Positions 1-57,929 of a stretch of DNA of 64,000 bases are shown here, in pieces (within the stretch, counting starts at the first letter, position 1; every line of letters begins with the position of its first letter). The position numbers were made by a program, and so were the translations under genes. The DNA is taken from NCBI GenBank assembly GCA_000002445.1, contig CH464491.1:1664001-1728000 (forward strand). Reading direction: 5' to 3'. This DNA comes from Trypanosoma brucei (lineage: Eukaryota). The notes below the pieces were generated by a model. It saw only the letters and a program-made list of their open reading frames with translations, had not been told where the DNA came from and ran no database searches.

Positions 1-1380
1 CCTCAGACTCGCGCGGTAAACAACCACATTGTCCATCAACTGCACAATAAGGCCGTTCAATGGTGCGCGCAGAACAACACCAGCGCTGGAGCACTCTGAT
101 GCGCCCCACGTCAGAAACCCCGTGACCACGGGCTGCAACCGAAAACCATCCACGACCTCCTTCATGTACACCACGCTCCCACCCTGGTTGCACTGACACA
201 CAGCACCTTGCCATGCAGCAAACGCATCGCAATCACCTCCAAAGTCGCCAACAACGAGATCATCAATAAGGTAGCGCCGTTGTTCGTACAGTGAGTCTAT
301 GAATGCTGTGCTGTTAGTTAACGACAATGTGCTCCGGAGAGCTCGTGATACGACTTCCCCGGTGATCCATCCAGTGAGCATCAACTCCCCGCTGGTATCA
401 TCTTCAAGGAGTTCCTGTCGCATCGCAAACCTGTGCCCCTCATCACTAGATGAGAGGTACTCGTCCACCTCTTCCCGGAACCGTTTCACAACCGCAAATC
501 GTGCGTGGTTCGAGAGGGGGTTAACACCGCTTATAATCAGTTGTCCGGGTATCAGTTCACGACCACTCTCCTCTAAGGCATCCCGCCAAGTATTAATCAG
601 GAAAACCTGAGCGCTGGATGGCGCAAGTACGTACACACCTGTGGTGCGATCGTCGGTAGCCATTCTCCTCACAAACTCTCTGGTGACGGGATTGGGTGAG
701 CCAAGTAAAAGCACGGCTAATGGGCGGGTATTCACAAACTGCTCCCACTCGGCATCAAACGCGGTGCTGACAACCTCCAGTCCACCGGTACCCTCGAGGG
801 AGAAAGTTCCGCTCAACTCGTACCCCATTCCCGACAATATCTTTAAGGTGAACGCATGCGACTCCTTACCGAAATATGAGTCACTCAGATACATAAACCC
901 AAGGCGGGAAAGTCGCAGGGTGACGGCAAAGTATCGAATCAGGGTCAGCAGTTCAGCGTCTGGCTCAGCGGTAGTGAAGTACAGGTGGCGATTCCACCCA
1001 CGAGCCTCATCCGAGTAAGTTAGGGGTGAGAAAGCAACTACATCGTTGTTCTTAAGGTGTTCGAGGGACCAGAGCACATTGTCGTTGCCCAGCGGACCCA
1101 CTGCTATCAAAAGCTTTCCTTTACTTGCCTCCACGGCACTCTCAAAAAGCTCCTCAATAGGCTGGTCATGGGACGAGGGTCGAATGACAGAGACTTTCAC
1201 CCCGTTGGGGATGTCTCCACGACGGGCGGCCAGCGACGCCTCGAAACCGGTGCTCAGGGCGTCAACACTCACCTTGGGGAATTTAGGGTTGTACATAAGG
1301 TAGAGAATGTTGACTGTCACCTCCGCGCCGGCAGCCACACGCACCCCAACGGACAGCAGCGCGAGGAGCGCCACCGCCAT
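1..1380 (-). CDS. 5' portion of a gene running off the window. It has a signal peptide plus a periplasmic-binding-protein-like extracellular domain, probably a receptor-type adenylate cyclase (GRESAG4-like) N-terminus.
   Basis: Hand translation of the minus strand from the ATG at 1380..1378 gives MAVALLALLSVGVRVAAGAEVTVNILYLMYNPKFPKVSVDALSTGFEASLAARRGD... with no stop down to position 1. The ORF track omits it, presumably because there is no in-window stop. The N-terminus is a hydrophobic signal peptide. The rest resembles the LIVBP-like extracellular domains of trypanosome adenylate cyclases as I remember them. The four plus-strand ORFs at 299-1398 are its antisense. Confidence 0.4.
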   Translation of the reverse strand, partial: MAVALLALLSVGVRVAAGAEVTVNILYLMYNPKFPKVSVDALSTGFEASLAARRGDIPNGVKVSVIRPSSHDQPIEELFESAVEASKGKLLIAVGPLGNDNVLWSLEHLKNNDVVAFSPLTYSDEARGWNRHLYFTTAEPDAELLTLIRYFAVTLRLSRLGFMYLSDSYFGKESHAFTLKILSGMGYELSGTFSLEGTGGLEVVSTAFDAEWEQFVNTRPLAVLLLGSPNPVTREFVRRMATDDRTTGVYVLAPSSAQVFLINTWRDALEESGRELIPGQLIISGVNPLSNHARFAVVKRFREEVDEYLSSSDEGHRFAMRQELLEDDTSGELMLTGWITGEVVSRALRSTLSLTNSTAFIDSLYEQRRYLIDDLVVGDFGGDCDAFAAWQGAVCQCNQGGSVVYMKEVVDGFRLQPVVTGFLTWGASECSSAGVVLRAPLNGLIVQLMDNVVVYRASLR

Positions 1381-3170
1381 GGTGAAGGGGCGCGGTAAGT
1401 TGGACGCAACCAACGGCGGGGCCCGGACGACACGCGAGGCAGGACGGCAATTCAATACCGCCCCGCACCCACCACACAAACGGTAATCGTTCATATTTTA
1501 AGTTTTACTAGGTTAATCGCAATGTCTTCGGAAGGAGGAGGTAGGAAAGAAGGTTGCATAGGTGGTAGAGTGGTGGACAACAACTAAAGCACTGGTGCAA
1601 TAGAAGACGGCCGAAGCAAGTCTCGAACGATCATCTCGCCGGTAGCCCACGGCACTGCGCAGAATGGCACTAACAAGCCGCCCCCTGCGCGCAACAACAA
1701 GCACGGAAAGGTGTCTTCACGCACTGTGGTGTCCAGCAACTTACGTATGGAGTGACACAAAGGGCATGGTGCCAAAGTTTGGACGGAGTGCATCTAACAA
1801 GTCAAAATGACGGGTGATAACGGCTTTGGTTTATCTTCCTTGGGGTTAGTGTCATCGCCTTCGTTCTCGTTTCGTCGGCAACCGCTCACAGGGCAAGGCA
1901 AATAAGACTGTAGATGCTGTAACTATCTAATACGCACATCGGTGTAAAACCTGAATTCTGCGTAGGAACCTCGCATGTGAGGGTGTTTAGGTTATCGATC
2001 ACAAAGAACCGTTACGTCGTTCCATGTTTTTCACACATCACAACGAGTGGGCAGCAGAAAGGGTTGCATTTTCACTGATGAATATGAGTTATGTCGACAA
2101 CAGTAATGATATCGCAGCGACTCTGCGTGAAGAGTTCATCCTCATCAACATATTTCTTCTATCAATGTATGAATTCAATGCAATACAAGCACAATTAAGT
2201 CGACGAGTTAACGCCGCGGCATCCGTGGAGGTCGAAAAGGTGCTTCACAGGTCTTGCACAGCACCAAAGAGCGGAGACTTGTTATCGTCAGGACGCAAAA
2301 CAGTCAGCACACCGCAGCGTACACCGCCGGCAAGCGTGACTCCAGGGGAGCGCATGGATGGAGCTTTAAAATCTCCGGATGATAACATCTTAAGTGTGAT
2401 GCAAAAACTAAACAGTCGACGCCAACGAAATTCACGAGTAATGATTAGACGGAAAGGCCTTATGCACCCTCTGCATTCAATCTACCCACGTCAAACTTCC
2501 ATAACTCACAAGTCGTTTGTATCTTCTACAATTCAATAACGGCATGATCCAGCATAAACCGTCAAATCCCTGTCAAAGCAGGTCGCAACTCGCCTTGCAC
2601 AATCTTCACTCAGCTGGGGTAACAAACAAAAACTGACAAAGGGGGAAAGAAACACGTCAACAGAAGCGTTATTAAGGGCACCCCAACATGAAAAAGGGAG
2701 CGAATCCGCCACCCTCAAAGCCCCCTTTCCCACCTCATATGAACGGAGAACGAAAAAAAAATTGAATAAAAAAATGAGGGGAGTTCAGTACAACAACAAA
2801 AGTAAATAAATGGCAAAAGATGACAGCATCCTTACGGTGTCTTCCCGTCCCCGTTTTGCTTCCTACGTTTATTACGTATACGTTATTTTAGTCATACCCT
2901 TTCCCATTTTGCGCAGTAACTTATGCTTCCCTACCCGTCCACTAGCACAGTCCCTTCTCTACGTTATTTTTCACACAGCTAACACACCGCCGATGCGCCT
3001 GAAGAGGCACAAAAGAGTGCGCATAGACTAGGGTCGAAGGATTAAAAATTTCCGTCCTCTGTGGACACAATAAACATCTCGGAAGATGCTCCAAAAGAAA
3101 TAAACAAATACAAAAAAATTAAGAAAAAAAAACAAGTGGTACTGTCTACTACGAACTCCTTGGTTCAACT

Positions 3171-3494
3171 TCAAACGGTTGCCTGCTCCTTCTTTGCACC
3201 ATCATCAGCAGCCGTTTCGTTAGCGCCGGGATTTTCATTGTTCTCAGGTCCGTCAGCGCGCGTCATTTCTTCCGTTTCCTCATCAGATGCACCAGGGATG
3301 TGAAGCTCATCAGGACGGCGGTGTGCAACATACAATGCAATGCCAATGCCTACCACTGTAATACCGAGGCAAACCCATACGAGTGGGAATTCCTTTTCAG
3401 TGGCACCACCCGGAGCGGGATCTGGGGCGGCGGCACGCACCACCTCCATAACGAAGGCGATGGCAAAGACAAGTGCGACGGATTTCGAGAACAT
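3171..3494 (-). CDS. Small type-I membrane protein, 107 aa (copy 1). It has a signal peptide, a short ectodomain, one TM helix and an acidic D/E-rich cytoplasmic tail.
   Basis: The ORF starting at an internal Met (cat at 3492-3494) reads MFSKSVALVFAIAFVMEVVRAAAPDPAPGGATEKEFPLVWVCLGITVVGIGIALYVAHRRPDELHIPGASDEETEEMTRADGPENNENPGANETAADDGAKKEQATV. The segment upstream of that Met in the track ORF is low-complexity F/S/L, i.e. a translated pyrimidine tract. Its orientation matches the transcription unit. Confidence 0.5.
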   Translation of the reverse strand: MFSKSVALVFAIAFVMEVVRAAAPDPAPGGATEKEFPLVWVCLGITVVGIGIALYVAHRRPDELHIPGASDEETEEMTRADGPENNENPGANETAADDGAKKEQATV

Positions 3495-4099
3495 AACGAA
3501 CTTTAAAATAGCTTGAGAGAAAAACTGCGCTAGAAGTATCCTGTCACAATAGAAGAATAGTGAAAATGAAAGAGAAAGAATCACGTCAACAGAAGCGTTA
3601 TTAAGGGCACCCCAACATGAAAAAGGGAGCGAATCCGCCACCCTCAAAGCCCCCTTTCCCACCTCATATGAACGGAGAACGAAAAAAAAATTGAATAAAA
3701 AAATGAGGGGAGTTCAGTACAACAACAAAAGTAAATAAATGGCAAAAGATGACAGCATCCTTACGGTGTCTTCCCGTCCCCGTTTTGCTTCCTGCGTTTA
3801 TTACGTATACGTTATTTTAGTCATACCCTTTCCCATTTTGCGCAGTAACTTATGCTTCCCTACCCGTCCACTAGCACAGTCCCTTCTCTACGTTATTTTT
3901 CACACAGCTAACACACCGCCGATGCGCCTGAAGAGGCACAAAAGAGTGCGCATAGACTAGGGTCGAAGGATTAAAAATTTCCGTCCTCTGTGGACACAAT
4001 AAACATCTCGGAAGATGCTCCAAAAGAAATAAACAAATACAAAAAAATTAAGAAAAAAAAACAAGTGGTACTGTCTACTACGAACTCCTTGGTTCAACT

Positions 4100-4423
4100 T
4101 CAAACGGTTGCCTGCTCCTTCTTTGCACCATCATCAGCAGCCGTTTCGTTGGCGCCGGGATTTTCATTGTTCTCAGGTCCGTCAGCGCGCGTCATTTCTT
4201 CCGTTTCCTCATCAGATGCACCAGGGATGTGAAGCTCATCAGGACGGCGGTGTGCAACATACAATGCAATGCCAATGCCTACCACTGTAATACCGAGGCA
4301 AACCCATACGAGTGGGAATTCCTTTTCAGTGGCACCACCCGGAGCGGGATCTGGGGCGGCGGCACGCACCACCTCCATAACGAAGGCGATGGCAAAGACA
4401 AGTGCGACGGATTTCGAGAACAT
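4100..4423 (-). CDS. Small type-I membrane protein, 107 aa (copy 2, identical protein).
   Basis: Same ORF 929 bp downstream with an identical amino-acid sequence from MFSKS to the stop. Confidence 0.5.
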   Translation of the reverse strand: MFSKSVALVFAIAFVMEVVRAAAPDPAPGGATEKEFPLVWVCLGITVVGIGIALYVAHRRPDELHIPGASDEETEEMTRADGPENNENPGANETAADDGAKKEQATV

Positions 4424-5401
4424 AACGAACTTTAAAATAGCTTGAGAGAAAAACTGCGCTAGAAGTATCCTGTCACAATAGAAGAATAGTGAAAATGAAA
4501 GAGTTTTGAAATAGAAACAACGCAACATCGTCCACGGGGTTCATAAATATAAATAAATTATTTTATCCAGTTTGAAAAGGGAAAAGGGGCTGAGGAAAAT
4601 TTCTTTGTTATTGCCCATCCCACATATCTTGCCTGTGGCCCCGGAAAGTGACGATGCACTTTTTCGTCTGGACCATCATTGACTTCCGATATCTTTTGTA
4701 GCTTAATTTCCGTATATTCGATCAACTAGAAAGTAGGGATGTGGAACGGAAATCAGTTACCTAACTGCGACCGCCGCAGTCCTTGAGCAGCGAAACAATC
4801 GGCAGAGGAAACAGGCATCCGTCTACGAAACGAATTTACATTTACAGAAATACGAACACGTAGTGGAAGCACGTGTGCGAAGGAAGGACAAAATGAAGCA
4901 TCAGACCCATATAAGCCCAATTACCACATTACGTTCCTTCCTTCTAACCCCCACACACAAAAGAAAAAAAAATCGTTCAGCTCACCTATCCTGCCTCACG
5001 GTGTGAGGACATGAAAGTAAGCGGAGACAACAAAGAAATAAACTCAAATGAAGTGATGAATTGGAAAAGTAGGTACTGAACGAAACATTATCCTCGGTCG
5101 AAATATAGGGAATCCCTGGTGATTTTACCCACACGCAAAAAAAAAACAAAACAAAACAAAAGAACACCGTCGGTGTATTCATATATGATGTCGTGATGAG
5201 TGTAATACTCACCGAAGGCACGATAGAACGGCCAACAAAAATGAAAATAACAGTGTCAAGAAAAATATATGTTTAAATATATATATATATCAGTAAAAAT
5301 GAGCTACGCTGTGAAGACCATGGCACAACATGGTGCCATAAAGTCGGGTACATGCAACGCACACTTGTAACCCAATTGAAGAACACGATATTCTCAAACT
5401 C

Positions 5402-7546
5402 CTACTGATAAGATACTTGAACCATTAAAAAAGAGCCATGTATAATAGATCCTTTGAGGTCTCGAAGGGGGACCTGGCGAATTCCTTTTTTTAGGGCACG
5501 TAATGGCACAACATATTCACCCAGAAGGTTATTGCTTTTGGTATCCTCGTCATACACCTGCATGACAAGGGTGGACAGTTCCCACTCGTACACCTTCCAG
5601 CAGAACTCGTTGTTTAGGCGCTCACCCCGCCAGACAGGATGAAAGCCATTATTGTGAATGGGAGATGTGTTTCGTTGGCTTTTCTCCATGCCGGGGCCCT
5701 CAATCAAGGCGGCTACGCGAGAATCCACAATACTGCTACCGGATGCATTTTTCCGCCTGGGAAGACAGAAAGCTGATATAATTTCTATTGTGAGCAACCG
5801 TGACTGCCGTTTTGGCCCCCTTGCACGTGCAATGTCCACAGCAGTCGGTTTGAGAAGGTAGCCGCAGTTACCATTGTCGCTGAAGAACCCCCTATTTAGC
5901 CTAAGCTGGTATGACTTGTAATTCTGCCAATTGAGTGCAACTAGTTGGCACCCACAATTCCAAAACGTTTGAGGATGAAAGTTACTGCTACCGATGCGAG
6001 TTCCTGTGGGGTATATGCGACTCAAACACCGATTATTGATGGCAACAAACTCCTCCTGGTTAGAAGAGGCAATTTTCCCCGCTTTCCCTTCAGTAAAAGA
6101 GCTGCAGTGATATGGTTGACGCATTTCAAGATAACTTAGATCCTCAACACCCTTATAACCAATGGATTCGATTGAAATAAGACGAGATAGTTTCTCTGAA
6201 ACCTTTGAAACCTTCTTTTTCTTTTCAGCACCCCTTGAATTCGTTTTTCCACCACCGCGACAACGCCGAGCAGTTTCAGGTGGTACGAAATTTTCCACCA
6301 CACCATCGGCTTCCTCATCCTCATCGTCGTCATCATCAACCTGTACCCCATCGGTAGGTGTAGTAGCCCGTTTGCTCTTTAGCAGAATTTTTCCCTTTAG
6401 CGCTTCCGGCGAGAATGTGAAAGAAGTCTGTTCACCAGCACCCCAAGGACTGCAGAATAGCATATCTCCGAGCGTTTCACACAAAATTTCCGCCATTCGA
6501 TCCTGTTGGCGGAGGCTAGTGTGAACCTCAAGCGACAAAATGACAGGGTATATTGAATTAACGAAAGCATACTTCTTGATCGTGCTAATACAGTCCCGGA
6601 ACCAAAGCTTGGAAGTCCTTGTGTAACCATGATAAACTACAGGCTGACCCTTGCGACCATCCCAACAATCAAGTTCAACGCAGCGGCAGCCATCCAGTAG
6701 AACCCTCTTGTACATATCCGTGGAAGATTTGCTCAAGAGTTGATCACCCGTAAGGTAGGTATTGTGCGAGGAATTGATGAAATACTCACATATCGGGCGA
6801 GTCATATCGTGGTAAACACTAGACACCTTTCTGTTGTTCACAATGGAGTTAAAGCGCCTGTCGCTGAGAAATGATAAGAATGCGTCCAAATGTACAGGAT
6901 GCTCTTCGGTACAGCCAACAGCGTCTAGAAATACGTGCAGCTCCTCACCATCGGCACCCTCTCCTTGAGTTTCCTTCAGGAAGGTAACAAACTCAGCCTT
7001 TGTCATCACGTCCCGATCGGGACCCACAATATTTCGCATTGCATATGTCAGTTCATTAAGTCTTGTCAGAGACATAAATGTCCCCTGCATCAACTTGTAG
7101 TTTGCCCTCCCCCCTGTAGCTTCCAGCTCGTCAATCATCTTTTGTGAGAGCCTTTCAGGGAAGCTCAAACCCTTCAAGATTTTCCTCAATTCACGAACGC
7201 ATATGTCCCCGCTGTTGTCGTCGTCGTACTTTATCCATATCATCATGAACTTCGCGTGATTCACATCCCATTTTATGAGATTCAGCGGATTTGCAGCACA
7301 AAAGGAAGTAAACAACTCTGCCGCCCGTGGGTTTGCACTACTTGCGCATGCAAGGAACTCGACGGCATCCTCCCGGCTGCACTTCAAAAGGTCCGTGATG
7401 GCTCCCAGCAGAGAAGAAAAGAAGGGCTGAAGCTCGTGTGCCTCAACTGCCCCTGTCGAAAGATGCTCATCAACGAGGTTGCCGGTACGGTGGGAGTAAC
7501 ATGCGAGTTTCTCTTCTGAGAGCCCACGTGACGTACACCCTCCCAT
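5402..7546 (-). CDS. PLC: Phosphoinositide-specific phospholipase C (PI-PLC), 714 aa.
   Basis: The X-box catalytic region contains SSHNTYL and [11 protein letters not shown]-box region ([14 protein letters not shown]...QLVALNWQ) is followed by a C-terminal C2-like region. A D/E-rich linker lies between X and Y. The N-terminus MGGCTS is an N-myristoylation / palmitoylation consensus. An EF-hand-like segment ([17 protein letters not shown]) is present. Confidence 0.85.
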
Positions 7547-49379: not shown

Positions 49380-52300
49380 CTACTGCAGAAACTTGAGGTT
49401 ATTAATATGTTGAATTGCCGAAAAGTGCTTAGTGGCGAGCTCTTTCCACATTTCCCTTGAGCGTTGTGATCCTAAACAATTGATATACTCCGATAGAAGA
49501 CCAACCACATCTGGGGGTAAAGAACCTGTCTGCAAGGCTTGGAATAGCTCCATAGCTGCCTTTGCTATGGCTGAACGGCGTTGGGCGTTTGCTACCTGCT
49601 GAATGGTCGTGCGCAACTTCTGCGCTAAGTCCCGATGTTCTGGGTTCAGCGACGAAATTTCAAACGACGACAAACCAAAATCATCCGCCGGTCGACCACC
49701 TGCGGCTGCAAACCGAGGTGGGGCGCCAGGGTTCGCGACCGGAGCGTACGCCACGCCGCCTACCCGTGGAGCTGTCACCACAGGGGGTGCGGTACCAACT
49801 GCAGTGGAAGGAATCCCGGGGGGAGGAGGAGCAACAGAACTGGGCGCTGTCATCGATGCTGCCTGAGGGGGTTGGTTTGTCACACTCTGGGGGTTCATGT
49901 TCCAGTTGGCATTTGAGCCGTCACTGGGCATACGTGGTGGTGGAAGCCCACCCGAGGTCATCGACGGTGGTGCCGACCCTGGTGGTGCCACCATCATATT
50001 CCCAACCCGCGGAGCTGACGGCTCCGGCGACGGGGAACTTTTACCCGTCCGATGCAAACTTCCTGTTGGAGGTGCACCAAAAGTCGATGTCGGGTTGGTG
50101 TCTAATCCTGATGGCGCCCTAGGAGGTAGAGGCATTCCACGTGGACCTGACGGTGGCTGCGCAGGAGTAGGAAATTGCTGAGGTGGTGCTAAAGGAGTTC
50201 CGATGACCTGCTGCGACGGCAGTGATGGAACGACCGTCGGTTGTGCTGGCGCGTGGAGCCCTTGTACAGATGTTACTGACGACCCACATGACGGCGGGGG
50301 TATCATTGGCATAGAACGTTGGGGATCCATATGGTTCGGCGGGCGTGGGGGGGCGGAAGTGGGAACCGGACCTTGCAATTCCTGACTCGGCAGATTTTGA
50401 GGAGGAGCACCACAGTAACCGCTCATCGTCGCAGTGGCAGGGGGGTGGTTTGTTACCACACCTCCTCCAACAGACCCCAAAGAAGACCAGGAAGAAATGG
50501 GATGAGGCATCAGTCTGGGTACCGGTGCAGCGGAGTTCGCCGTTACCGCCGGTCCCGGTTGTTGGGCGATGATCCCTGGTGCCGGCGCCTGTTGCTGCTG
50601 CCCACCGTACATATTGGGTTGCACAGCTGATGGAGGTTGTTGCTGCTGCCCACCGTACATATTGGGTTGCACAGCTGATGGAGGTTGTTGCTGCTGCTGT
50701 TGTTGTGTCGGTGGCGGCATCGTGGCTCCCATACGTTGCTGCTGGTACTGGGGTTGCACAACTGATGGAGGTTGTTGCTGCTGCCCACCGTACATATTGG
50801 GTTGCACAGCTGATGGAGGCTGTTGCTGCTGCTGTTGTTGTGTCGGTGGCGGCATCGTGGCTCCCATACGTTGCTGCTGGTACTGGGGTTGCACAGCTGA
50901 TGGAGGTTGTTGCTGCTGCTGTTGTTGCTGCCCGTTACCCTTGTTAGCCAAAAACTCCAAGCACGACTGACTTAGTGAATCCGAAAGAGGAGTCGCAACA
51001 AACGGGAAGGTGATCTGTCCACACGGAACTTCGAACCTCATCCGGTCTACCATAATTGCGGCGTTGCGATTGCCGACGTTAGCGGACCGCTGAAAAATTG
51101 GCATCGCCTTCGTAAGCAACCCCTTCCCCAACAACCCCAGCCCATATTCATACAAGTAATCCCCAAAGAACGTTGATGTAACCTTCCGCCCCGTCACTTC
51201 CTCAAGAAGAAGTACCTCCTGCACCAGCTTCTCTACAGGCATATTTTCCTCGTGCCACAGTTCCGCAACTGCATCCACATTTCCACTGCAAATAAAACAG
51301 GTCATAGCACTCTCCCTGTTACCCGCTTCCTTGAGGGCAAGTGCCAACTTGTCGCAAGCCTCCGAAAATCTTTCCCCTACAAATGATATTATAACGGAAA
51401 GAGCCTCCTTCCACAACGCGTTCCCACCGACCATCAACGAGCGAAAATCTCCTGCGGCGACTGCAGACGCATACACGATATGCCGTTTCCCCTGAGAATT
51501 CATTAAAATATGCCTGGTATATTCCTGCTGCACTCGCTGCATCAGCTTCCCTCCTTGCAAATAGGCAATAGCAAAGGCATCACCAAACTCGCATTCGTCC
51601 AAACATGCCTCAACCGCCTCATTGATGCGGCCTGCTGCTACATGTGAAGCAGCAATATCTTCTAATGATTTTTGTGTGCCCTGCATCGTCTCAAATGGGT
51701 CCTCCGTGTCCTCAGTTGGTGCGTCCTCGGCGAGGTAGGAAAGGATGGGGGTACGATCGTTTTTGCACGCTGCTGCAGCGGCCAAAAGTGGATATTGGTG
51801 CGCCTTTAGCCACTCTACACGCTCCACAGAGGCGGGTGGTAGTCGAGAAATCTCAGCGACAGGATCCCCACCGCTCATCCCTGACGGATCGGATGCGTTG
51901 TTTGTGACGATACGTGTAAGTCTGACAGCGTTTGCGGAGTGAGAAGACACCGACGCTACGAGCCCACTTATGCCAATAGAAGCCCCACATGGGCGCTGCA
52001 AAGACTTTTGTACCGATGCACCAGGGGCAGGGGCAGAAGACACATCCTCAGCCGTTGATACACAAAACAACGGCTCAAAGGATGACGTCGCCAGGACCAC
52101 CGGAAGTGCTCGAGACCACTTCATGTCAACCATATAGCCGTTTTGCTGTTGCAGTGCGCCATTCCGCTCTCCAGTCGAGGGGTCCCACCATAGTGTCTTC
52201 CCGTCCGCATCACATGACGCGAGAATCGCGTGGTCTGTCATATTCCACGCAAGTCCAGTTACAGCATTCTCGTGACCCAGCATCTCGCGAAGAGGCATCA

Positions 52301-53075
52301 TTGCTTTTTTTAAATCCCAAATTTGTATGGCAGGATGTTTTTCGTCGAGTCCGACAGCAATTTGAGTCGCCATAGATGGATGCCAAGCAATAATGTTTCC
52401 AGATGATCCCGATTTCCCACTCTTGGATACATGCAGCGACACTGCTAGGGTCTGTGTCTTCAGGTTCCACACATTGACAACGCCGTTAGCAACGGAAGTG
52501 GCTAAAATGTGAGGCCACTTCGGGTTCCACTGAAGGTGTGTAATGCCAGCCGGTTGAGCAGAGTCAGGCATAATAGGAACACGCTGCGGCTCTCGTGGGT
52601 TTTCCAACATCCATACATCCCATGCCCCGTCGTCGCCACCGATAGCAAGAAATGTGGGTTGGGACGGGTTGAATTGGCAACCACGGACGGCGCCGCGGTG
52701 CTCAGCAATAACAGAAAGTCGTGGTTCTTCCGTGTTACGGTCAGGATTGATTCCATAGTTTTTCATCATGATAGACGCATCGTACACGTACACGGCTCCA
52801 TCTTCACAAGAAACAGCAATGATGCCTCGTTCCCCGCCGTGTGGACTCCAGTCAACACGGAGAGCGTGTGCCGGAATCACCGTACGACCCAAAACGGGCA
52901 TCTCTGTCTCATCCGTCTGCGTGACATCAACCAACCGTATCTCGAGAAAGGCCTCACCAGAAAAGTTGTCATCAATTGCTCCGGCAACGGACGCCGCGGC
53001 GAGAAACGTTGGTGTTCCCAGAACCTCCGGTGCCCACGCAAAAACGCAGGTCAGGGGTGTGGCCTTTAAGCGCAT
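49380..53075 (-). CDS. SEC31: COPII outer-coat subunit Sec31, 1231 aa. It has an N-terminal WD40 propeller, an alpha-solenoid, and a Pro/Gln-rich disordered region with tandem repeats.
   Basis: The N-terminus (MRLKATPLTCVFAWAPE...AIDDNFSGEAFLEIRLV) parallels the Sec31 start. WD repeats run through residue ~340 (LAWNMTDHAILASCDADGKTLWWD, etc.). The central region is helical. A long P/Q/S-rich segment follows, then a conserved C-terminal helical tail. Confidence 0.85.
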   Translation of the reverse strand: MRLKATPLTCVFAWAPEVLGTPTFLAAASVAGAIDDNFSGEAFLEIRLVDVTQTDETEMPVLGRTVIPAHALRVDWSPHGGERGIIAVSCEDGAVYVYDASIMMKNYGINPDRNTEEPRLSVIAEHRGAVRGCQFNPSQPTFLAIGGDDGAWDVWMLENPREPQRVPIMPDSAQPAGITHLQWNPKWPHILATSVANGVVNVWNLKTQTLAVSLHVSKSGKSGSSGNIIAWHPSMATQIAVGLDEKHPAIQIWDLKKAMMPLREMLGHENAVTGLAWNMTDHAILASCDADGKTLWWDPSTGERNGALQQQNGYMVDMKWSRALPVVLATSSFEPLFCVSTAEDVSSAPAPGASVQKSLQRPCGASIGISGLVASVSSHSANAVRLTRIVTNNASDPSGMSGGDPVAEISRLPPASVERVEWLKAHQYPLLAAAAACKNDRTPILSYLAEDAPTEDTEDPFETMQGTQKSLEDIAASHVAAGRINEAVEACLDECEFGDAFAIAYLQGGKLMQRVQQEYTRHILMNSQGKRHIVYASAVAAGDFRSLMVGGNALWKEALSVIISFVGERFSEACDKLALALKEAGNRESAMTCFICSGNVDAVAELWHEENMPVEKLVQEVLLLEEVTGRKVTSTFFGDYLYEYGLGLLGKGLLTKAMPIFQRSANVGNRNAAIMVDRMRFEVPCGQITFPFVATPLSDSLSQSCLEFLANKGNGQQQQQQQQPPSAVQPQYQQQRMGATMPPPTQQQQQQQPPSAVQPNMYGGQQQQPPSVVQPQYQQQRMGATMPPPTQQQQQQQPPSAVQPNMYGGQQQQPPSAVQPNMYGGQQQQAPAPGIIAQQPGPAVTANSAAPVPRLMPHPISSWSSLGSVGGGVVTNHPPATATMSGYCGAPPQNLPSQELQGPVPTSAPPRPPNHMDPQRSMPMIPPPSCGSSVTSVQGLHAPAQPTVVPSLPSQQVIGTPLAPPQQFPTPAQPPSGPRGMPLPPRAPSGLDTNPTSTFGAPPTGSLHRTGKSSPSPEPSAPRVGNMMVAPPGSAPPSMTSGGLPPPRMPSDGSNANWNMNPQSVTNQPPQAASMTAPSSVAPPPPGIPSTAVGTAPPVVTAPRVGGVAYAPVANPGAPPRFAAAGGRPADDFGLSSFEISSLNPEHRDLAQKLRTTIQQVANAQRRSAIAKAAMELFQALQTGSLPPDVVGLLSEYINCLGSQRSREMWKELATKHFSAIQHINNLKFLQ
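50580..50935. repeat. Nested in-frame tandem repeats inside Sec31: a 135-bp unit (45 aa) x2 containing and followed by a 48-bp unit (16 aa, PPSAVQPNMYGGQQQQ) x4-5.
   Basis: The motif tgtcggtggcggcatcgtggctcccatacg recurs at 50706 and 50841 (135-bp period). The motif ttgctgctgcccaccgtacatattgggttgcacagctgatggagg recurs at 48-bp spacing. The plus-strand CCCC-rich ORFs at 50569-50970 are the antisense of the CAG/CAA codons. Confidence 0.85.
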
Positions 53076-54103
53076 CGCTCCACGTCAGTAGTCAGCACCC
53101 TTAACCTTATGTCAATTCTCTTAACACTCTCACAGTCTTACTCTTTCTTTATTACGTGCTGGTTTACTTGACTCTATTTGTCGAAAACTGTCTCAGGCAC
53201 GTCCTTCCTTTTTGTCCTTCAAGTGCGCTCTTCTTTTCGTCCTCTGCTCTGTTAGTTCAGTTTGGTATTATGAAATGCTATCAAGTGCGCCGCGCGTCTC
53301 CCTATAGTATTGCTTTAAATACAACCACCTACTGGCACATTAAAGAAAAATTCAACGGGGGAAAATGTCAACGACAGGAACAAAAAATAGAAATGTGGGG
53401 CGACTAGCGAAAAGAAGGTAAACAAGAGGTCAATTGGGGAAATTTTACACGGAGCAAGGACGCCTAGGACAAAACAGAGAACCAGGACGCAACCATAACG
53501 GACGTCGCAATGTGTACAGACCAAAAGGAGTAGAAAATTTGCACTGATTCTTCACTGCTACAACACTCACTCTCACGCCTGTCCCGGACAAAGCGTCCGT
53601 ACAAACAAGTAACAAACGTCGGCCTTCAGTGCATCAATTTAGAATGATGATTATGCCTGAGTGCACGGTAACTGAAGCCGCCGCATGACACCAGCTTCTA
53701 GAAGAGGCTAAGTAGCGATCCGTCGGCAGTAGGCAAAGTGGCGTCTGCTTGGCTTCCCTAAACCGTGGCACAAACCGTCCCAACACGCCGTCCCCCATGC
53801 CCCTTACAGTGCAGGAAACGTTGTGAGCCGCTCTAACAAAAAAGCCGTGTTCTGAATCGCAAGAGCTCACGAGGCAACACAAGCACTCCCACATGGCAAC
53901 TAGATGGCAACATCAGGTACACAAAGAGTAATCAGTCCTCCCTCCCATAATGACTGCAGCCTCGTAAACCGCTCAAAGGCTGTATATACTGGCTAACGAG
54001 CTATTCAAGCCCTACCAAAAGAACAAGAACAAAGATATAAAAGGAAACATGACAAGCAACGTATCTTGATGGTTAGCAATAGAATACACACTTGCACAGC
54101 ACC

Positions 54104-54862
54104 CTCAAGCAGTGAGAAAGGAGGGGGGAAATAATCATCTTAAAGCTTCTCAATGTAAACGAAAAGGAGAACTGTAAATCAAAAAAAGGTATGGAAACGA
54201 CTGATCACACCATCAGTACGCACAAGCAGATGGCAATCCCTTCCCTCGACCTCAGTTACGCTTTGGGCGGACTGTCTTTCGGTGGAAGTGCATCTTCGAT
54301 GAGCGCTCCTTGCGAGCAGCACACACCTTCTTCATGCGAGTGATGGTACATGCCATCTTGCGCGCGCGACGGTATGCCATCTTAGCAAGGTCGGGGCGGA
54401 TGTCGGCAACAGCTCTCTTCACCACTGATGACTTCACGCCAGGTTCCATCACAGTCTTCTTATACATCAACTTGGGCTTGTTGTTTGTATCACCGCTCTT
54501 TGTTGTCAGGAGGATGCGATCACCCTTCGTCTTTATCACTGCGGCCTTCGTGTTCAGGAAACCAGACTGTCGCTTTGTCCAATTCGCGTTGTTATTGAAC
54601 GGATCACTGCTCAATCGAATGCCATTCCGCTTCTGCAGAAATTTACTGTTCTGGCGAACCAACAGCCACTGAAGATCAGTGGAGTGCGTCATTTGTTTCT
54701 CACACCCTACAGTACAGGCAACAGTAGAAACAGGAACAGAAGGATGAATAAGGAAAATATATGAGAGAGCGCTGAACAATGGGCTCCACTTGGTGAGGAG
54801 AGCAGTTAAGGGTGCGACAGACGGAGGAAAACTAAAACTCTCCCACCCAGATATTCGGAAGG
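54104..54862. repeat. Dispersed direct repeat, copy A (~759 bp), carrying the RPL28 gene plus flanks.
   Basis: Near-identical to 55671-56429 at a 1567-bp offset. Both start at ctcaagcagtgagaaaggaggggg and both end at cccacccagatattcggaagg. Confidence 0.9.
54252..54692 (-). CDS. RPL28: 60S ribosomal protein L28e, 146 aa (copy 1).
   Basis: MTHSTDLQWLLVRQNSKFLQKRNG... and ...RPDLAKMAYRRARKM... align to the eukaryotic L28e family (human HLQWMVVRNCSSFLIKRNK / RPDLRMAAIRRASAI). The track ORF is longer (226 aa) only because an upstream in-frame non-ATG codon was accepted as a start. The real start is the MTHSTDL Met. Confidence 0.85.
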   Translation of the reverse strand: MTHSTDLQWLLVRQNSKFLQKRNGIRLSSDPFNNNANWTKRQSGFLNTKAAVIKTKGDRILLTTKSGDTNNKPKLMYKKTVMEPGVKSSVVKRAVADIRPDLAKMAYRRARKMACTITRMKKVCAARKERSSKMHFHRKTVRPKRN

Positions 54863-55076
54863 TGCCATCATTACGTAGCACCCATTCCGTGGCAACATTA
54901 GTGTATGTCCCAACCTCACGACTCCCATACAAACACCAAAAGGGGTTATATATCTTTTTTATCTTAAATTTTATTTATTTATTTTTTTTACGATGCGGTC
55001 GAAAGGTTATTCCTCTTATCAACAAATAGCATAAGGGAAAACCAGTTGCAAAAAAAATCTGAGAAAAGTAGGGGGA

Positions 55077-55526
55077 CTAAGCAATACCCACGGAAACACC
55101 AGGAACCACAAACCTCTGGCGCCGGAGCAATACCATCTCTGCCTCGTGGAGTCGGTTGACCATTTCCATTGTGTCATTCCAACTACCGGCGCATACCCCT
55201 TCACTACCTTGCTGAGCATCCACGCAGAAGCGGTACAAAAGATCCGTTACGAGTGTTGAGAGTGAGACACGTTGAAGTGACGAGCCCCAAAATTTAGCAG
55301 CTATCCATATAGACGCCAGCTGCCTTTCAGCAACTGTACGCCGTTCCACCTCTGAGGACCACAAATCGATCACCGCAGCCGGCTTTGGGGGGCATTCAGT
55401 ACCCTCAACTCCAGCTATAAGAAGACGAGACGAATTTATAATTTTTTCCTGCAGTCGCGACCCTTCGTGGACGCCTAGCAGCTTGAAAAGTGCATCATGA
55501 AGTACGGGTGTCATATGGTGGCACAC
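55077..55526 (-). CDS. Orphan hypothetical ORF, 149 aa, between the two RPL28 copies.
   Basis: ORF in transcription-unit orientation with non-repetitive composition (MCHHMTPVLHDALFKLLGVHEGSRLQEKIINSSRLLIAGVEG...). No motif recognised. Confidence 0.3.
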   Translation of the reverse strand: MCHHMTPVLHDALFKLLGVHEGSRLQEKIINSSRLLIAGVEGTECPPKPAAVIDLWSSEVERRTVAERQLASIWIAAKFWGSSLQRVSLSTLVTDLLYRFCVDAQQGSEGVCAGSWNDTMEMVNRLHEAEMVLLRRQRFVVPGVSVGIA

Positions 55527-55670
55527 CTCAAACCACGCAATTGACTACACCTCAAAGCTAAAAAAGACTTAACTAACAAATAATTTCTCAAGAGCGAAGA
55601 AGGGGGGAAACGCGAACACTTGCTAATGTGAAAGAACATTCTCAGGTAACAAGTTTAAAAAATATGCCCA

Positions 55671-56429
55671 CTCAAGCAGTGAGAAAGGAGGGGGAAAAGA
55701 ATCATCTTAAAGCTTCTCAATGTAAACGAAAAGGAGAACTGTAAATCAAAAAAAGGTATGGAAACGACTGATCACACCATCAGTACGCACAAGCAGATGG
55801 CAATCCCTTCCCTCGACCTCAGTTACGCTTTGGGCGGACTGTCTTTCGGTGGAAGTGCATCTTCGATGAGCGCTCCTTGCGAGCAGCACACACCTTCTTC
55901 ATGCGAGTGATGGTACATGCCATCTTGCGCGCGCGACGGTATGCCATCTTAGCAAGGTCGGGGCGGATGTCGGCAACAGCTCTCTTCACCACTGATGACT
56001 TCACGCCAGGTTCCATCACAGTCTTCTTGTACATCAACTTGGGCTTGTTGTTTGTATCACCGCTCTTTGTTGTCAGGAGGATGCGATCACCCTTCGTCTT
56101 TATCACTGCGGCCTTCGTGTTCAGGAAACCAGACTGTCGCTTTGTCCAATTCGCGTTGTTATTGAACGGATCACTGCTCAATCGAATGCCATTCCGCTTC
56201 TGCAGAAATTTACTGTTCTGGCGAACCAACAGCCACTGAAGATCAGTGGAGTGCGTCATTTGTTTCTCACACCCTACAGCACAGGCAACAGTAGAAACAG
56301 GAACAGAAGGATGAATAAGGAAAATATATGAGAGAGCGCTGAACAATGGGCTCCACTTGGTGAGGAGAGCAGTTAAGGGTGCGACAGACGGAGGAAAACT
56401 AAAACTCTCCCACCCAGATATTCGGAAGG
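55671..56429. repeat. Dispersed direct repeat, copy B (~759 bp), carrying the second RPL28 gene.
   Basis: See copy A. Confidence 0.9.
55819..56259 (-). CDS. RPL28: 60S ribosomal protein L28e, 146 aa (copy 2, protein identical to copy 1).
   Basis: The cat at 56257-56259 is the ATG of MTHSTDLQWLL. The CDS is identical to copy 1. Confidence 0.85.
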   Translation of the reverse strand: MTHSTDLQWLLVRQNSKFLQKRNGIRLSSDPFNNNANWTKRQSGFLNTKAAVIKTKGDRILLTTKSGDTNNKPKLMYKKTVMEPGVKSSVVKRAVADIRPDLAKMAYRRARKMACTITRMKKVCAARKERSSKMHFHRKTVRPKRN

Positions 56430-57929
56430 CACAACAAACGAAAAGAATGACGCTTTCCCTGCCCCCACCGGGAGGTCACAGAAACTGAACCAAAAGACAC
56501 TGTGGAGAGGAAAAAAAGGGGGGGCGACACCACATTTTCCTTCATGAATAATACGTTGGTCGCGTTTTCCTGAATCGGGCGCGAAAAGGCAATCACTTCA
56601 CCTATTTGATGCCTGTGCGCGCGCATCGGCGTATTATTCTGTGCTTCTTCTTTCTCTCTCGTGTCGGAGGTTACTGTTCCATTTAAATATATGCAACGCG
56701 GACCAGTAAAATGAAGTTTCAGGAAATGAGAAGGAAACCCACAAAAATCGAGCAGGCGACGGACACAAGAGAGGCGATGCCTCGAGACGAGCGTCAGTTC
56801 CTTTCAACATTTAAAAATTTTTTTAAAGGCTAGGTTTAAAAAAAAAAAGAACGATATAAGGTTCATTTCCATGAAACTGAATGGTACGACTCACCCACTA
56901 AATTTTTTTCTATATTCACCCTCCTAGACCGGTGGGGTTGCCCTCACAAAAAACGACCATGTCCAGTTTTCCCGGTTAGGTGCGACACAACTTCTCAGAC
57001 CTCGCAGGTCTCTGCTAAGTTCTTTTTGCTTAATGTTAATAAGTGGTTAAATGACTTCCTCCTACCTCTGTTTAACATCACTTCTGAATTTATTGTTCAC
57101 TCTCTCGTTCCCCCACCCCCACCCTTTCTTCCGATGGCGGAAGTTCTTTTTTTTATTTTAAAAACAAATAAAACGGTTGGTGCCCTCTTGGGGTTAAAAA
57201 AGCGACCGTAATCGATTAATAAAGGTAATATATAAGCAGCTGTACATACACAAACTCCTTGTCTTTGCGTCCTTACACTGTAATGAACACTACAGGGAAA
57301 AGACGTTAGGATGCGAGAAAGGAAAAGTGAAGAAGACCATGTATCTATTCACTTAAACCCAAAAAACACGCGCACACGGCGGACTTACATATGAATCTAA
57401 ATTATTGCCATACTTTCTTTCTCCCTTTTTAGGGGTTGATATCTCCCCACTAATCACAAAAGAAGGATTGCGCAGCTCCCACACTCACTCCTTTAAGTCT
57501 ACATCTGTGCAGTTAATCAGGACAACTTTGGTAAGAGGAAAATTGCAATAAAGGTAACAAGTTCTCTTATCCAACATGATGCTTAATTACACGCGCATCT
57601 CCTTCTGCTCACCTGACGCTCTTCGCATCGGGTTGCTCGGCTCCCCACTTCTTACACGATGTACTCGTCCCCCAGTTGGAGCCATACAACAAATAAATAT
57701 ATATGCATCAGGGTGCCCATTGCACAAAAGTAACAAGAGGTGCCTAAACAAAAAAAAAAGAATGAAAGAGACTTTCCAATATGTGGAGCTCCAATTCCCC
57801 TCTCTCTTGCACCAACAACCATGACAACAGATAAACTCAACCCCAGAAGGAGAGTTCCCATCGGCCTCGATAGTGTGGTGAAAGCATGACTAATACATGC
57901 CATATGGAGAGTCACGCTCACAATCGAAT

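What the first reader, a model, noticed from the sequence alone, without database searches (positions are those of the whole stretch)
2649..4502. Perfect 929-bp tandem duplication encoding a small signal-peptide / single-TM / acidic-tail protein
Two ~99% identical 929-bp units (only two point differences seen) each carry a 107-aa ORF in transcription-unit orientation. The protein has a cleavable-looking signal peptide (MFSKSVALVFAIAFVMEVVRAAAP), a ~12-aa ectodomain, one TM helix (LVWVCLGITVVGIGIALYVA), a basic stop-transfer (HRR), and a 55-aa D/E/N-rich tail. Near-identity across coding and non-coding parts implies recent duplication or ongoing gene conversion, as in trypanosome surface-protein arrays. 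I do not recognise this protein as a named family. That both frames of the overlapping plus strand also give ORFs is a GC-skew artefact.
Basis: partly seen in the sequence, partly recalled or inferred. Interest (0 to 1): 0.55.

Follow-up and report, generated by a model that had tools for sequence, protein, structure and literature searches.

The report
Duplicated small trypanosome membrane-protein gene
This is a real head-to-tail duplication of an already annotated Trypanosoma brucei gene (Tb927.11.5950/5960) for a tiny single-pass membrane protein found across trypanosomatids, expressed and seen at the flagellar pocket, but of unknown function.

Summary
Two 929-bp head-to-tail units (2645-3573 and 3574-4502) differ at three positions. 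Each carries an identical 107-aa ORF on the minus strand, which is the strand of every ORF of 250 aa or more in the window.

The window is T. brucei TREU927 chromosome 11. The ORFs are the annotated "hypothetical protein, conserved" pair Tb927.11.5950/5960 (Tb11.02.3760/3770), just downstream of the PI-PLC gene.

- RNA-seq gives RPKM 4450 (salivary-gland forms) and 1286 (bloodstream forms).
- TrypTag places Tb927.11.5950 in the flagellar pocket, subdomain "ring".

The protein belongs to a family found here only in trypanosomatids, or in unnamed sequences. It has 28 clusters at 50% identity, no Pfam model and no solved structure. Members share a variable signal peptide, a nearly absent ectodomain, a near-invariant membrane core (FPLVWxCLGxTxxG…RP) and a variable acidic tail.

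Comparison with T. b. gambiense and T. b. equiperdum shows concerted evolution of the two copies. T. vivax has a diverged pair at the same syntenic site.

Function is unknown. My best inference is dosage amplification of an abundant small type I membrane protein that acts through its membrane segment, probably as an accessory subunit of another membrane protein. The duplication is ordinary trypanosome genome architecture and is already annotated.

The parts
2645..3573 (-). Repeat unit 1. This is the copy distal to PI-PLC and the downstream one in the direction of transcription. It carries Tb927.11.5950 (EAN79558 / XP_828670).
   Evidence: Offset-929 identity, the repeat finder, and gene identifiers.
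3574..4502 (-). Repeat unit 2. This is the copy next to PI-PLC and the upstream one. It carries Tb927.11.5960 (EAN79559 / XP_828671).
3171..3494 (-). CDS of the 107-aa protein, distal copy, stop codon included. Residues: signal peptide 1-21, exoplasmic stub 22-37, membrane helix 38-57/59, HRR 58-60, acidic tail 61-107.
4100..4423 (-). CDS of the identical 107-aa protein, proximal copy. GenBank's 142-aa model (4100-4528) starts at an upstream ATG and translates the pyrimidine tract. The TrypTag primers place the start at MFSKS.
4424..4503 (-). 80 nt upstream of the ATG, included in the duplication. It holds the pyrimidine-rich tract CTCTTTCATTTTCACTATTCTTCTATTGTGACAG. The first AG after the tract is at 4471-4470, which would give a 5' UTR of about 46 nt. 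Its role as the spliced-leader acceptor is inferred.
   Evidence: Sequence read. The function is inferred from the general rules of trypanosome trans-splicing and was not tested.
3495..3574 (-). The same 80-nt upstream segment for the distal copy, with the AG at 3542-3541. By the coupled-processing rule it would also direct polyadenylation of the proximal copy's mRNA.
   Evidence: inference.
2645..3170 (-). Duplicated sequence 3' of the stop codon (about 526 nt, presumed 3' UTR) in the distal unit. Its counterpart in the proximal unit is 3574-4099. It has no Rfam match. The plus-strand ORFs here (2810-3031, 3061-3303) have no support as genes.
5402..7546 (-). Upstream neighbour: phosphoinositide phospholipase C (Tb927.11.5970), with PI-PLC-X, PI-PLC-Y and C2 domains. 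It anchors synteny with T. vivax.
1..1494 (-). Downstream neighbour: the 5' part of a receptor-type adenylate cyclase gene, which runs off the window.
   Evidence: tblastn at 99% identity to the T. b. gambiense gene; Pfam families listed.

Best explanation
The region holds two tandem copies of one complete mRNA-processing unit: pyrimidine tract with splice acceptor, short 5' UTR, 324-nt CDS and a 3' UTR of about 526 nt. It lies inside a single polycistronic transcription unit of T. brucei chromosome 11.

The product is a small type I membrane protein. A signal peptide is probably cleaved after A21. The mature protein would then be about 86 residues: a stub of about 15 residues outside the membrane, one membrane helix whose outer half and RRP stop-transfer are nearly invariant across the family, and a disordered acidic cytoplasmic tail that usually ends in a hydrophobic residue. 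It travels through the secretory pathway to the flagellar-pocket membrane.

Shown:
- The duplication and its limits.
- Identity with the annotated genes.
- High mRNA level and pocket localisation, both from published data.
- Distribution of the family across trypanosomatids.
- Concerted evolution of the two copies.

Inferred:
- The duplication is kept because it doubles mRNA dosage in an organism that cannot tune transcription gene by gene.
- Gene conversion or unequal crossing-over keeps the copies alike.
- Conservation is concentrated in the membrane span rather than in either soluble part. The protein therefore probably works by packing its helix against another membrane protein, as an accessory or regulatory subunit of a conserved transporter, pump or channel. 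Its role would then resemble that of FXYD proteins or yeast PMP1, without being related to them. The partner is unknown.
For: Duplication.

Gene identity: 100% identity, contig of 5.26 Mb; XP_828670 and XP_828671; Tb11.02.3760/3770 = Tb927.11.5950/5960.

Orientation: all 17 large ORFs on the minus strand; adenylate cyclase on the minus strand.

Expression: PMC3998935 Table 3 gives RPKM 4450 in salivary-gland parasites and 1286 in blood forms.

Localisation: PMC9981465, source data for Fig. 5i, lists Tb927.11.5950 under the flagellar pocket subdomain 'ring'.

Topology: hydropathy peaks at 1-24 and 34-59, and AlphaFold2 helices at 3-21 and 38-59 with the rest unstructured.

Family and conservation:
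- 20 homologues from Trypanosoma, Leishmania, Phytomonas, Angomonas, Novymonas and Porcisia.
- 28 clusters in the exhaustive profile search.
- C42, R60 and P61 are invariant; F36, P37, L38, W40, G44, T46 and G49 are conserved in at least 90% of 30 sequences.
- Mean column entropy is 1.09 bits for residues 36-61, against 2.3-2.6 bits for the signal peptide, ectodomain and tail.
- The tail is net negative in 29 of 30 members, and the C-terminal residue is V, I, L or F in 22 of 30.

Concerted evolution:
- The unit boundaries are the same in TREU927, DAL972 and T. b. equiperdum.
- At three sites both TREU927 copies differ from both copies of the other two genomes.
- The TREU927 copies differ from each other at 3 sites but from their counterparts at 6-10.

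Tandem arrangement elsewhere:
- T. vivax has a syntenic pair that is only 39% identical.
- Angomonas has adjacent paralogues.
- A 1817-aa read-through gene model contains 8 repeats of the family.
Against: - No partner protein is known, and nothing here tests an interaction.
- Conservation along the membrane helix shows no significant helical periodicity (permutation p = 0.09-0.25). A single conserved packing face is therefore not demonstrated. Conservation is concentrated in the outer half and at the ends.
- The protein was not found in the held supplements of one bloodstream-form surface proteome.
- The TrypTag localisation used a tagged protein in procyclic forms. I could read only the subdomain list, not the full annotation.
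- The dosage argument is a general rule for trypanosomes, not a measurement at this locus. The T. equiperdum OVI assembly shows one copy, either because the repeat collapsed in assembly or because one copy is enough.
Confidence: 0.4

Rival explanations
1. It is a surface or flagellar-pocket coat or antigen gene, amplified like VSG, procyclin or BARP arrays, and acts on the host or vector through its extracellular part.
For: It has a signal peptide and a tandem arrangement. Transcripts are about 3.5-fold higher in salivary-gland parasites than in blood forms, and the source paper lists it among candidate surface genes. It localises to the pocket membrane.
Against: - After signal-peptide cleavage only about 15 residues lie outside the membrane in T. 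brucei, and only 3-6 in Leishmania, Phytomonas and Angomonas. That part is not conserved.
- The C-terminus is hydrophilic and acidic, so there is no GPI-anchor signal.
- The family occurs in insect-only and plant trypanosomatids, so it is not an adaptation to a mammalian host.
- It is absent from the held supplements of a bloodstream surface proteome.
Confidence: 0.08
2. It is a trafficking or sorting component. The conserved membrane span, the juxtamembrane RRPDELH(L/I)PG segment and the acidic tail ending in V/I/L would serve as signals for ER exit and cycling through the pocket and endosomes. The protein would then act as a small cargo adaptor or membrane-domain organiser rather than as a subunit of a transporter.
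For: The C-terminal residue is hydrophobic in 22 of 30 members and the tail is acidic in 29 of 30. From established knowledge, C-terminal valine and di-acidic motifs are ER-export signals in type I proteins. The flagellar pocket, the only site of exo- and endocytosis, is where the tagged protein was seen. RP is invariant and D/E-E-L-H is well conserved in trypanosomatids.
Against: Such signals would equally serve the protein's own transport and say nothing about cargo. No lumenal domain is available to bind cargo. The motifs were recognised by eye, not tested.
Confidence: 0.2
3. The duplication is a neutral, recent accident of unequal recombination with no selective value, and the second copy is redundant.
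For: Identity is 99.7%. Any microhomology at the junction is very short: only the boundary G is shared by the left end, the junction and the right end. One T. equiperdum assembly has a single unit.
Against: - The same two-copy structure with the same boundaries is present in T. b. gambiense and T. b. equiperdum, so it predates their split.
- A pair occupies the same site in T. vivax.
- Tandem copies recur in Angomonas, and in an unidentified species as at least 8 repeats within one read-through gene model.
- Both copies keep intact identical ORFs.
Confidence: 0.12
4. The conserved element is a non-coding RNA locus, such as a snoRNA cluster, and the ORF is incidental.
For: Near-identity extends over the non-coding parts of the unit. 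snoRNA genes in trypanosomes do occur as tandem repeats (general knowledge).
Against: There is no Rfam match at E of 1 or less on either strand of 1500-5400. The ORF is conserved as protein across trypanosomatids at 43-51% identity, with an invariant motif. Identity of the non-coding parts is explained by homogenisation of the whole unit.
Confidence: 0.02

Closest known systems
Tb927.11.5950 / Tb927.11.5960 (Tb11.02.3760 / 3770; XP_828670 / XP_828671), 'hypothetical protein, conserved', T. brucei TREU927
   Same: They are the same genes: 100% identity, next to PI-PLC Tb927.11.5970.
   Different: Nothing differs. GenBank's 142-aa model of the proximal copy carries an N-terminal extension that reads through the pyrimidine tract. 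The 107-aa start is the one used by TrypTag.
Unnamed trypanosomatid orthogroup of 76-127-aa proteins (e.g. T. cruzi Q4DFT3 'Transmembrane protein', L. tarentolae A0A640KUB9, T. vivax G0UBE9, T. congolense G0V0P9)
   Same: Members share the signal peptide, the FPLVWxCLGxTxxG membrane span, the RRP stop-transfer and the acidic tail. They are often present as adjacent paralogues.
   Different: The Trypanozoon proteins have a longer ectodomain stub and replace the HLPGSTVMT segment with HIPGASDEETEE. The gene lies next to PI-PLC only in salivarian trypanosomes, not in T. cruzi or L. enriettii.
Tandem gene arrays of trypanosomatids kept alike by gene conversion (general knowledge: tubulin, PGK, procyclin, TcSMP and others)
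   Same: The units are head-to-tail in the sense orientation, each with its own processing signals. The paralogues are more alike within TREU927 than to their counterparts in other subspecies.
   Different: There are only two copies, and the unit is unusually short at 929 bp.
Single-pass regulatory subunits of P-type ATPases (FXYD proteins; yeast PMP1/PMP2)
   Same: The resemblance is in architecture only: small size, signal peptide, an aromatic motif at the outer membrane boundary, conserved glycines in the helix, and basic residues at the inner boundary (the comparison rests on my own knowledge).
   Different: There is no sequence relationship. The FXYD Pfam family is absent even from the weak-hit lists, and no partner is known. 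This is an analogy, not membership.
Cytochrome b6f subunit PetG
   Same: It gave the best, though still weak, hit in solved structures (E = 0.025): a membrane helix followed by Y(R/K)R-x-D/N-x-L. Three family members hit Pfam PetG at E of 0.027 or worse.
   Different: The hits are below any threshold. PetG is plastid-encoded, has no signal peptide and is 37 aa long, and kinetoplastids have no b6f complex. I treat this as a chance resemblance of short membrane segments.
TcSMP / PSSA-2 surface membrane proteins
   Same: These are trypanosome membrane proteins with a signal peptide and a C-terminal membrane span, clustered in tandem.
   Different: They are about 40-47 kDa, lie on T. brucei chromosome 10 and have a proline-rich tail. 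They are unrelated.

Membership tests
Tb927.11.5950/5960 orthogroup (trypanosomatid small type I membrane protein, no Pfam model) | Sequence identity with the annotated T. brucei proteins | tested here: met
   100% identity over 107 aa to XP_828670; the 142-aa XP_828671 contains the same 107 aa.
Tb927.11.5950/5960 orthogroup (trypanosomatid small type I membrane protein, no Pfam model) | Core motif F-P-L-V-W-x-C-L-G-x-T-x-x-G ... R-P | tested here: met
   The motif is present at residues 36-61. C42, R60 and P61 are invariant in 30 sequences.
Tb927.11.5950/5960 orthogroup (trypanosomatid small type I membrane protein, no Pfam model) | N-terminal signal peptide with a small residue at -1, and a net-acidic cytoplasmic tail | tested here: met
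   A21 is conserved in 27 of 30 sequences. The tail has net charge -11 here and is negative in 29 of 30. Cleavage itself was not tested.
Tandem gene pair under concerted evolution | Head-to-tail units in the same orientation, each with a complete CDS and flanking processing sequence | tested here: met
Tandem gene pair under concerted evolution | Lineage-specific substitutions shared by both copies of one genome, with the same unit boundaries in related genomes | tested here: met
   Alignment columns 170, 316 and 547 separate both TREU927 copies from both copies of DAL972 and T. b. equiperdum. A GCT indel marks the proximal copy in the latter two genomes only.
Trypanosome surface-coat / antigen arrays (VSG, procyclin, BARP, ISG) | A substantial exposed ectodomain, or a GPI-anchor signal | tested here: not met
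   The ectodomain is about 15 aa here and 3-6 aa in many orthologues. The C-terminus is hydrophilic.
Trypanosome surface-coat / antigen arrays (VSG, procyclin, BARP, ISG) | Restriction to lineages that face the relevant host | tested here: not met
   Orthologues occur in Phytomonas, Angomonas, Strigomonas, Novymonas and Leishmania.
FXYD / PMP1-type single-pass pump regulators | Family signature (PFxYD motif, Pfam PF02038) or sequence similarity to PMP1 | tested here: not met
   The family does not appear in the hmmscan lists at E of 1 or less, for the query or for the 30 members.
FXYD / PMP1-type single-pass pump regulators | Physical association with, and regulation of, a P-type ATPase | not testable with these tools
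   This needs co-purification or functional assays.
snoRNA or other structured RNA cluster | Match to a curated RNA family | tested here: not met
   cmscan found no match at E of 1 or less in 1500-5400 on either strand. Unknown RNA families are not excluded.
PetG (PF02529) | Score above the Pfam gathering threshold or a significant PDB match | tested here: not met
   The best E-value is 0.025 against PDB chains and 0.027 or worse in Pfam for 3 of 30 members.

The most novel reading that the evidence does not exclude
The family is an obligatory single-pass subunit of a conserved plasma-membrane or flagellar-pocket transporter, pump or channel, and is found only in trypanosomatids. It would be a functional counterpart of FXYD or PMP1 that arose independently. 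Its invariant outer-leaflet motif (FPLVWxC...G..T..G) and R-P boundary would form the contact surface. That would reveal an unrecognised and possibly essential parasite-specific component of a housekeeping membrane machine.
Probability: 0.25. Interest if true: 0.5.

Novelty: already known. Interest (0 to 1): 0.25.

Why it matters
The duplication itself matters little. Tandem gene copies kept alike by gene conversion are standard in trypanosome genomes, and this pair is annotated in the reference genome and covered by published expression and localisation screens.

The protein is the more useful part. It belongs to an abundant, trypanosomatid-wide family with no Pfam model, no solved structure and no assigned function. 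Its membrane span is far more conserved than either soluble part, which is the usual mark of a subunit that works inside the membrane. If a partner were found, it would add a parasite-specific component to a housekeeping membrane system at the flagellar pocket, which is the only site of exchange with the host.

There is also a practical point for experiments. The two copies are identical in coding sequence and flanks, so tagging, RNAi and read mapping cannot tell them apart, and both must be removed for a null mutant.

Tried and rejected
- **Tandem Repeats Finder** returned nothing. Its longest period is 500, so this says nothing about a 929-bp unit.
- **Pfam** on the protein and on 30 family members gave only sub-threshold hits of hydrophobic composition: TMEM190, SfLAP, DUF6297 and PetG. 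All were rejected.
- **A family profile against all PDB chain sequences** gave only PetG at E = 0.025. I rejected it as chance.
- **The exhaustive profile search of 1.84 billion representatives** found 28 proteins. Every one that carries an organism name is a trypanosomatid; the others are unnamed Logan or EukProt sequences. No link to a known family appeared.
- **TcSMP/PSSA-2** was considered as a possible identity and rejected: about 40 kDa, chromosome 10.
- **The Gadelha et al. 2015 surface-proteome supplements** held no occurrence of the gene identifiers. The Shimogawa et al. 2015 paper is not held.
- **Helical periodicity of conservation**, as a test for a single packing face, was not significant (p = 0.09-0.25). 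I do not claim such a face.
- **Rfam** found no RNA family in the unit.
- **Synteny with PI-PLC** is present in T. vivax but absent in T. cruzi and L. enriettii. A functional link to PI-PLC through conserved neighbourhood is therefore not supported. TrypTag lists both proteins under the pocket 'ring' subdomain, along with 64 other proteins.
- **A first translation of 1-1495** was in the wrong frame. tblastn settled the adenylate cyclase start at 1494.


Full report
**1. The observation**

Sliding the sequence against itself at an offset of 929 gives 98-100% identity in every 50-nt window from 2650 to 3574, and background identity (10-40%) on either side. The units are 2645-3573 and 3574-4502, with one further shared G at 4503.

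They differ at 2652/3581, 2865/3794 and 3222/4151. The repeat finder reports the same pair. Tandem Repeats Finder is silent only because its longest period is 500.

The minus-strand ORFs at 3171-3494 and 4100-4423 give identical 107-aa proteins, so the one difference inside the CDS is synonymous. Chance cannot produce 929 bp at 99.7% identity.
- There are three differences, or two if the unit is counted from 2653.
- The acidic tail is 47 aa long, not 55.
- The exoplasmic stub is about 15 aa, not 12.

**2. Where the window comes from and what the genes are**

The protein is 100% identical to T. brucei brucei TREU927 proteins on a 5.26-Mb contig. The accessions are EAN79558/XP_828670 (107 aa) and EAN79559/XP_828671 (142 aa), and near-identical pairs exist in T. 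b. gambiense DAL972 and T. b. equiperdum.

The older identifiers are Tb11.02.3760 and Tb11.02.3770. TrypTag equates Tb11.02.3770 with Tb927.11.5960 and lists Tb927.11.5950 separately.

The 714-aa ORF at 5402-7546 is the PI-PLC Tb927.11.5970. A receptor-type adenylate cyclase starts at 1494 and runs off the window. All 17 ORFs of 250 aa or more in the window are on the minus strand. The pair therefore sits in sense orientation inside one polycistronic unit.

The plus-strand 171-aa ORF at 2024-2539 is not called as a gene in any of the three related assemblies.

**3. Anatomy of the unit**

Read in the direction of transcription, each unit begins with a pyrimidine-rich tract (CTCTTTCATTTTCACTATTCTTCTATTGTGACAG). 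Its first AG lies 46 nt before the ATG. The 324-nt CDS follows, then about 526 nt of 3' sequence. Each unit therefore looks like a complete trans-splicing and polyadenylation unit. That reading is inferred from the general rules of trypanosome mRNA processing and was not tested here.

GenBank's 142-aa model of the proximal copy starts at an upstream ATG and simply translates the pyrimidine tract (MLRCFYFKTLSFSLFFY...). The TrypTag primers place the start codon at MFSKS.

No Rfam family matches either strand of 1500-5400 at E of 1 or less.

**4. The protein**

Hydropathy shows two hydrophobic segments, at 1-24 and 34-59. AlphaFold2, run with a 30-sequence alignment, gives helices at 3-21 and 38-59 and no other structure apart from one four-residue helix at 74-77 in the tail (mean pLDDT 69.5).

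In the family alignment the first segment varies in sequence but ends in a small residue (A21, 27 of 30 sequences), as signal peptides do. The second segment is the conserved core.
- Invariant: C42, R60 and P61.
- Conserved in at least 90% of sequences: F36, P37, L38, W40, G44, T46 and G49.

Mean column entropy is 1.09 bits for residues 36-61. It is 2.3-2.6 bits for the signal peptide, ectodomain and tail. The tail is net negative in 29 of 30 members and ends in V, I, L or F in 22 of 30.

A test for helical periodicity of conservation was not significant (p = 0.09-0.25). Conservation is strongest in the outer half of the helix and at both membrane boundaries, rather than on one demonstrable face.

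**5. Family and distribution**

The word-indexed search found 20 homologues, in T. cruzi, T. rangeli, T. melophagium, Phytomonas, Leishmania, Porcisia, Novymonas and Angomonas.

The exhaustive profile search of 1.84 billion representatives found 28 proteins. All that carry a name are trypanosomatids, including T. vivax, T. congolense, Angomonas and Strigomonas. The others are unnamed Logan or EukProt sequences.

There is no Pfam family above cut-off and no significant solved structure; the best is PetG at E = 0.025, which I treat as chance.

Tandem copies recur in the family:
- T. vivax has two adjacent paralogues.
- Angomonas deanei has adjacent paralogues.
- One EukProt gene model of 1817 aa is a read-through across 8 repeats of the family.

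**6. History of the duplication**

T. b. gambiense and T. b. equiperdum have two units with the same boundaries.

In an alignment of all seven units, three columns (170, 316, 547) separate both TREU927 copies from both copies of the other two genomes. A GCT indel marks only the proximal copy of those two genomes. The TREU927 copies differ from each other at 3 sites but from their counterparts at 6-10.

The duplication therefore predates the split of these subspecies, and the copies have been homogenised since then by gene conversion or unequal crossing-over.

The T. equiperdum OVI assembly has one unit, identical to the TREU927 distal copy. An assembly collapse cannot be excluded.

In T. vivax the same site (SH3 gene, PI-PLC, then the pair) holds two paralogues that are only 39% identical. 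A pair at this locus may therefore be old in salivarian trypanosomes. In T. cruzi and L. enriettii the gene lies elsewhere.

**7. Published functional data**

Telleria et al. 2014 (PMC3998935, Table 3) list the pair as a "hypothetical protein, conserved family", with RPKM 4450 in salivary-gland parasites and 1286 in blood forms.

The TrypTag paper (PMC9981465) lists Tb927.11.5950 among 66 proteins of the flagellar-pocket subdomain "ring", in the source data for Fig. 5i. For Tb927.11.5960, tagging at one terminus was attempted without a cell line being recorded, and the other terminus was not attempted. Because the two copies are identical in CDS and flanks, tagging cannot tell them apart.

**8. 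Mechanism**

Shown: an expressed small membrane protein that reaches the flagellar pocket, encoded by two homogenised tandem copies.

Inferred: the duplication raises mRNA dosage, which is the usual way to raise expression in an organism without gene-specific transcriptional control.

Also inferred: only the membrane span and its boundaries are conserved, so the protein probably acts within the membrane as an accessory subunit of another membrane protein. This resembles FXYD or PMP1 proteins in architecture, but membership of those families was tested by sequence and not met.

Rival readings:
- A trafficking or sorting role, based on the acidic tail with a hydrophobic end.
- A coat or antigen role, which the minimal ectodomain and the presence in insect-only and plant trypanosomatids make unlikely.
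- A neutral duplication.
- A non-coding RNA locus, for which there is no support.

**9. The antisense ORFs**

The plus-strand ORFs over the CDS are not conserved in T. vivax. The codon-aligned antisense frame is stop-free in T. brucei, T. cruzi and L. enriettii simply because the sense strand lacks TTA, CTA and TCA codons. GC skew over the CDS is negligible (G 83, C 93). They are artefacts, but of codon usage rather than of GC skew.

**10. Verdict**

The finding is real and correctly read. It describes an annotated gene pair in a reference genome and an ordinary kind of trypanosome genome architecture. The remaining interest lies in the uncharacterised family itself.

Noticed in passing
window 54098-54870 and 55665-56437: A second near-identical duplication of about 770 bp, with a spacing of 1567 and 12 mismatches, about half of them at the two edges. 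Each copy carries a minus-strand ORF resembling ribosomal protein L28 (MTHSTDLQWLLVRQNSKFLQKRNG...). The copies are separated by another ORF at 55077-55526, so they are not strictly head-to-tail.
   Followed up: partly
window 50568-50885: An internal 135-nt direct repeat (two copies at 99%, a third at 68%) inside the 1231-aa minus-strand ORF at 49380-53075. It would be a 45-aa coding repeat.
   Followed up: no
window 4424-4528: GenBank's 142-aa model of the proximal copy (and the 143-aa model in T. b. gambiense) extends the ORF through the pyrimidine tract. The 163-aa GTG ORF of the distal copy is the same kind of artefact. The 107-aa start is the conserved one.
   Followed up: yes
window 2024-2539 (+): A 171-aa ATG ORF on the strand opposite to the transcription unit, between the distal copy and the adenylate cyclase gene. 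It has only a sub-threshold Pfam hit and is not called as a gene in three related assemblies. It is probably spurious.
   Followed up: partly
L001 (T. equiperdum OVI, CZPT02000030.1) 5922-6850: This assembly holds a single 929-bp unit, identical to the TREU927 distal copy, where TREU927, DAL972 and another T. b. equiperdum assembly hold two. It is either a collapsed repeat or a true copy-number difference.
   Followed up: partly
P0028 (1817 aa) and P0029 (585 aa), EukProt models gene3631/3632 of an unidentified species: These gene models read through at least 8 tandem units of this family and translate the spacers. They indicate a much larger array in another, presumably kinetoplastid, species. 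Two of the units lack the membrane span (…EKEFPPRPYSPEG…).
   Followed up: no
PMC9981465, source data for Fig. 5i: The neighbouring PI-PLC (Tb927.11.5970) is listed in the same flagellar-pocket 'ring' class as Tb927.11.5950. Because 66 proteins share the class, and the two genes are neighbours only in salivarian trypanosomes, this may be coincidence.
   Followed up: partly
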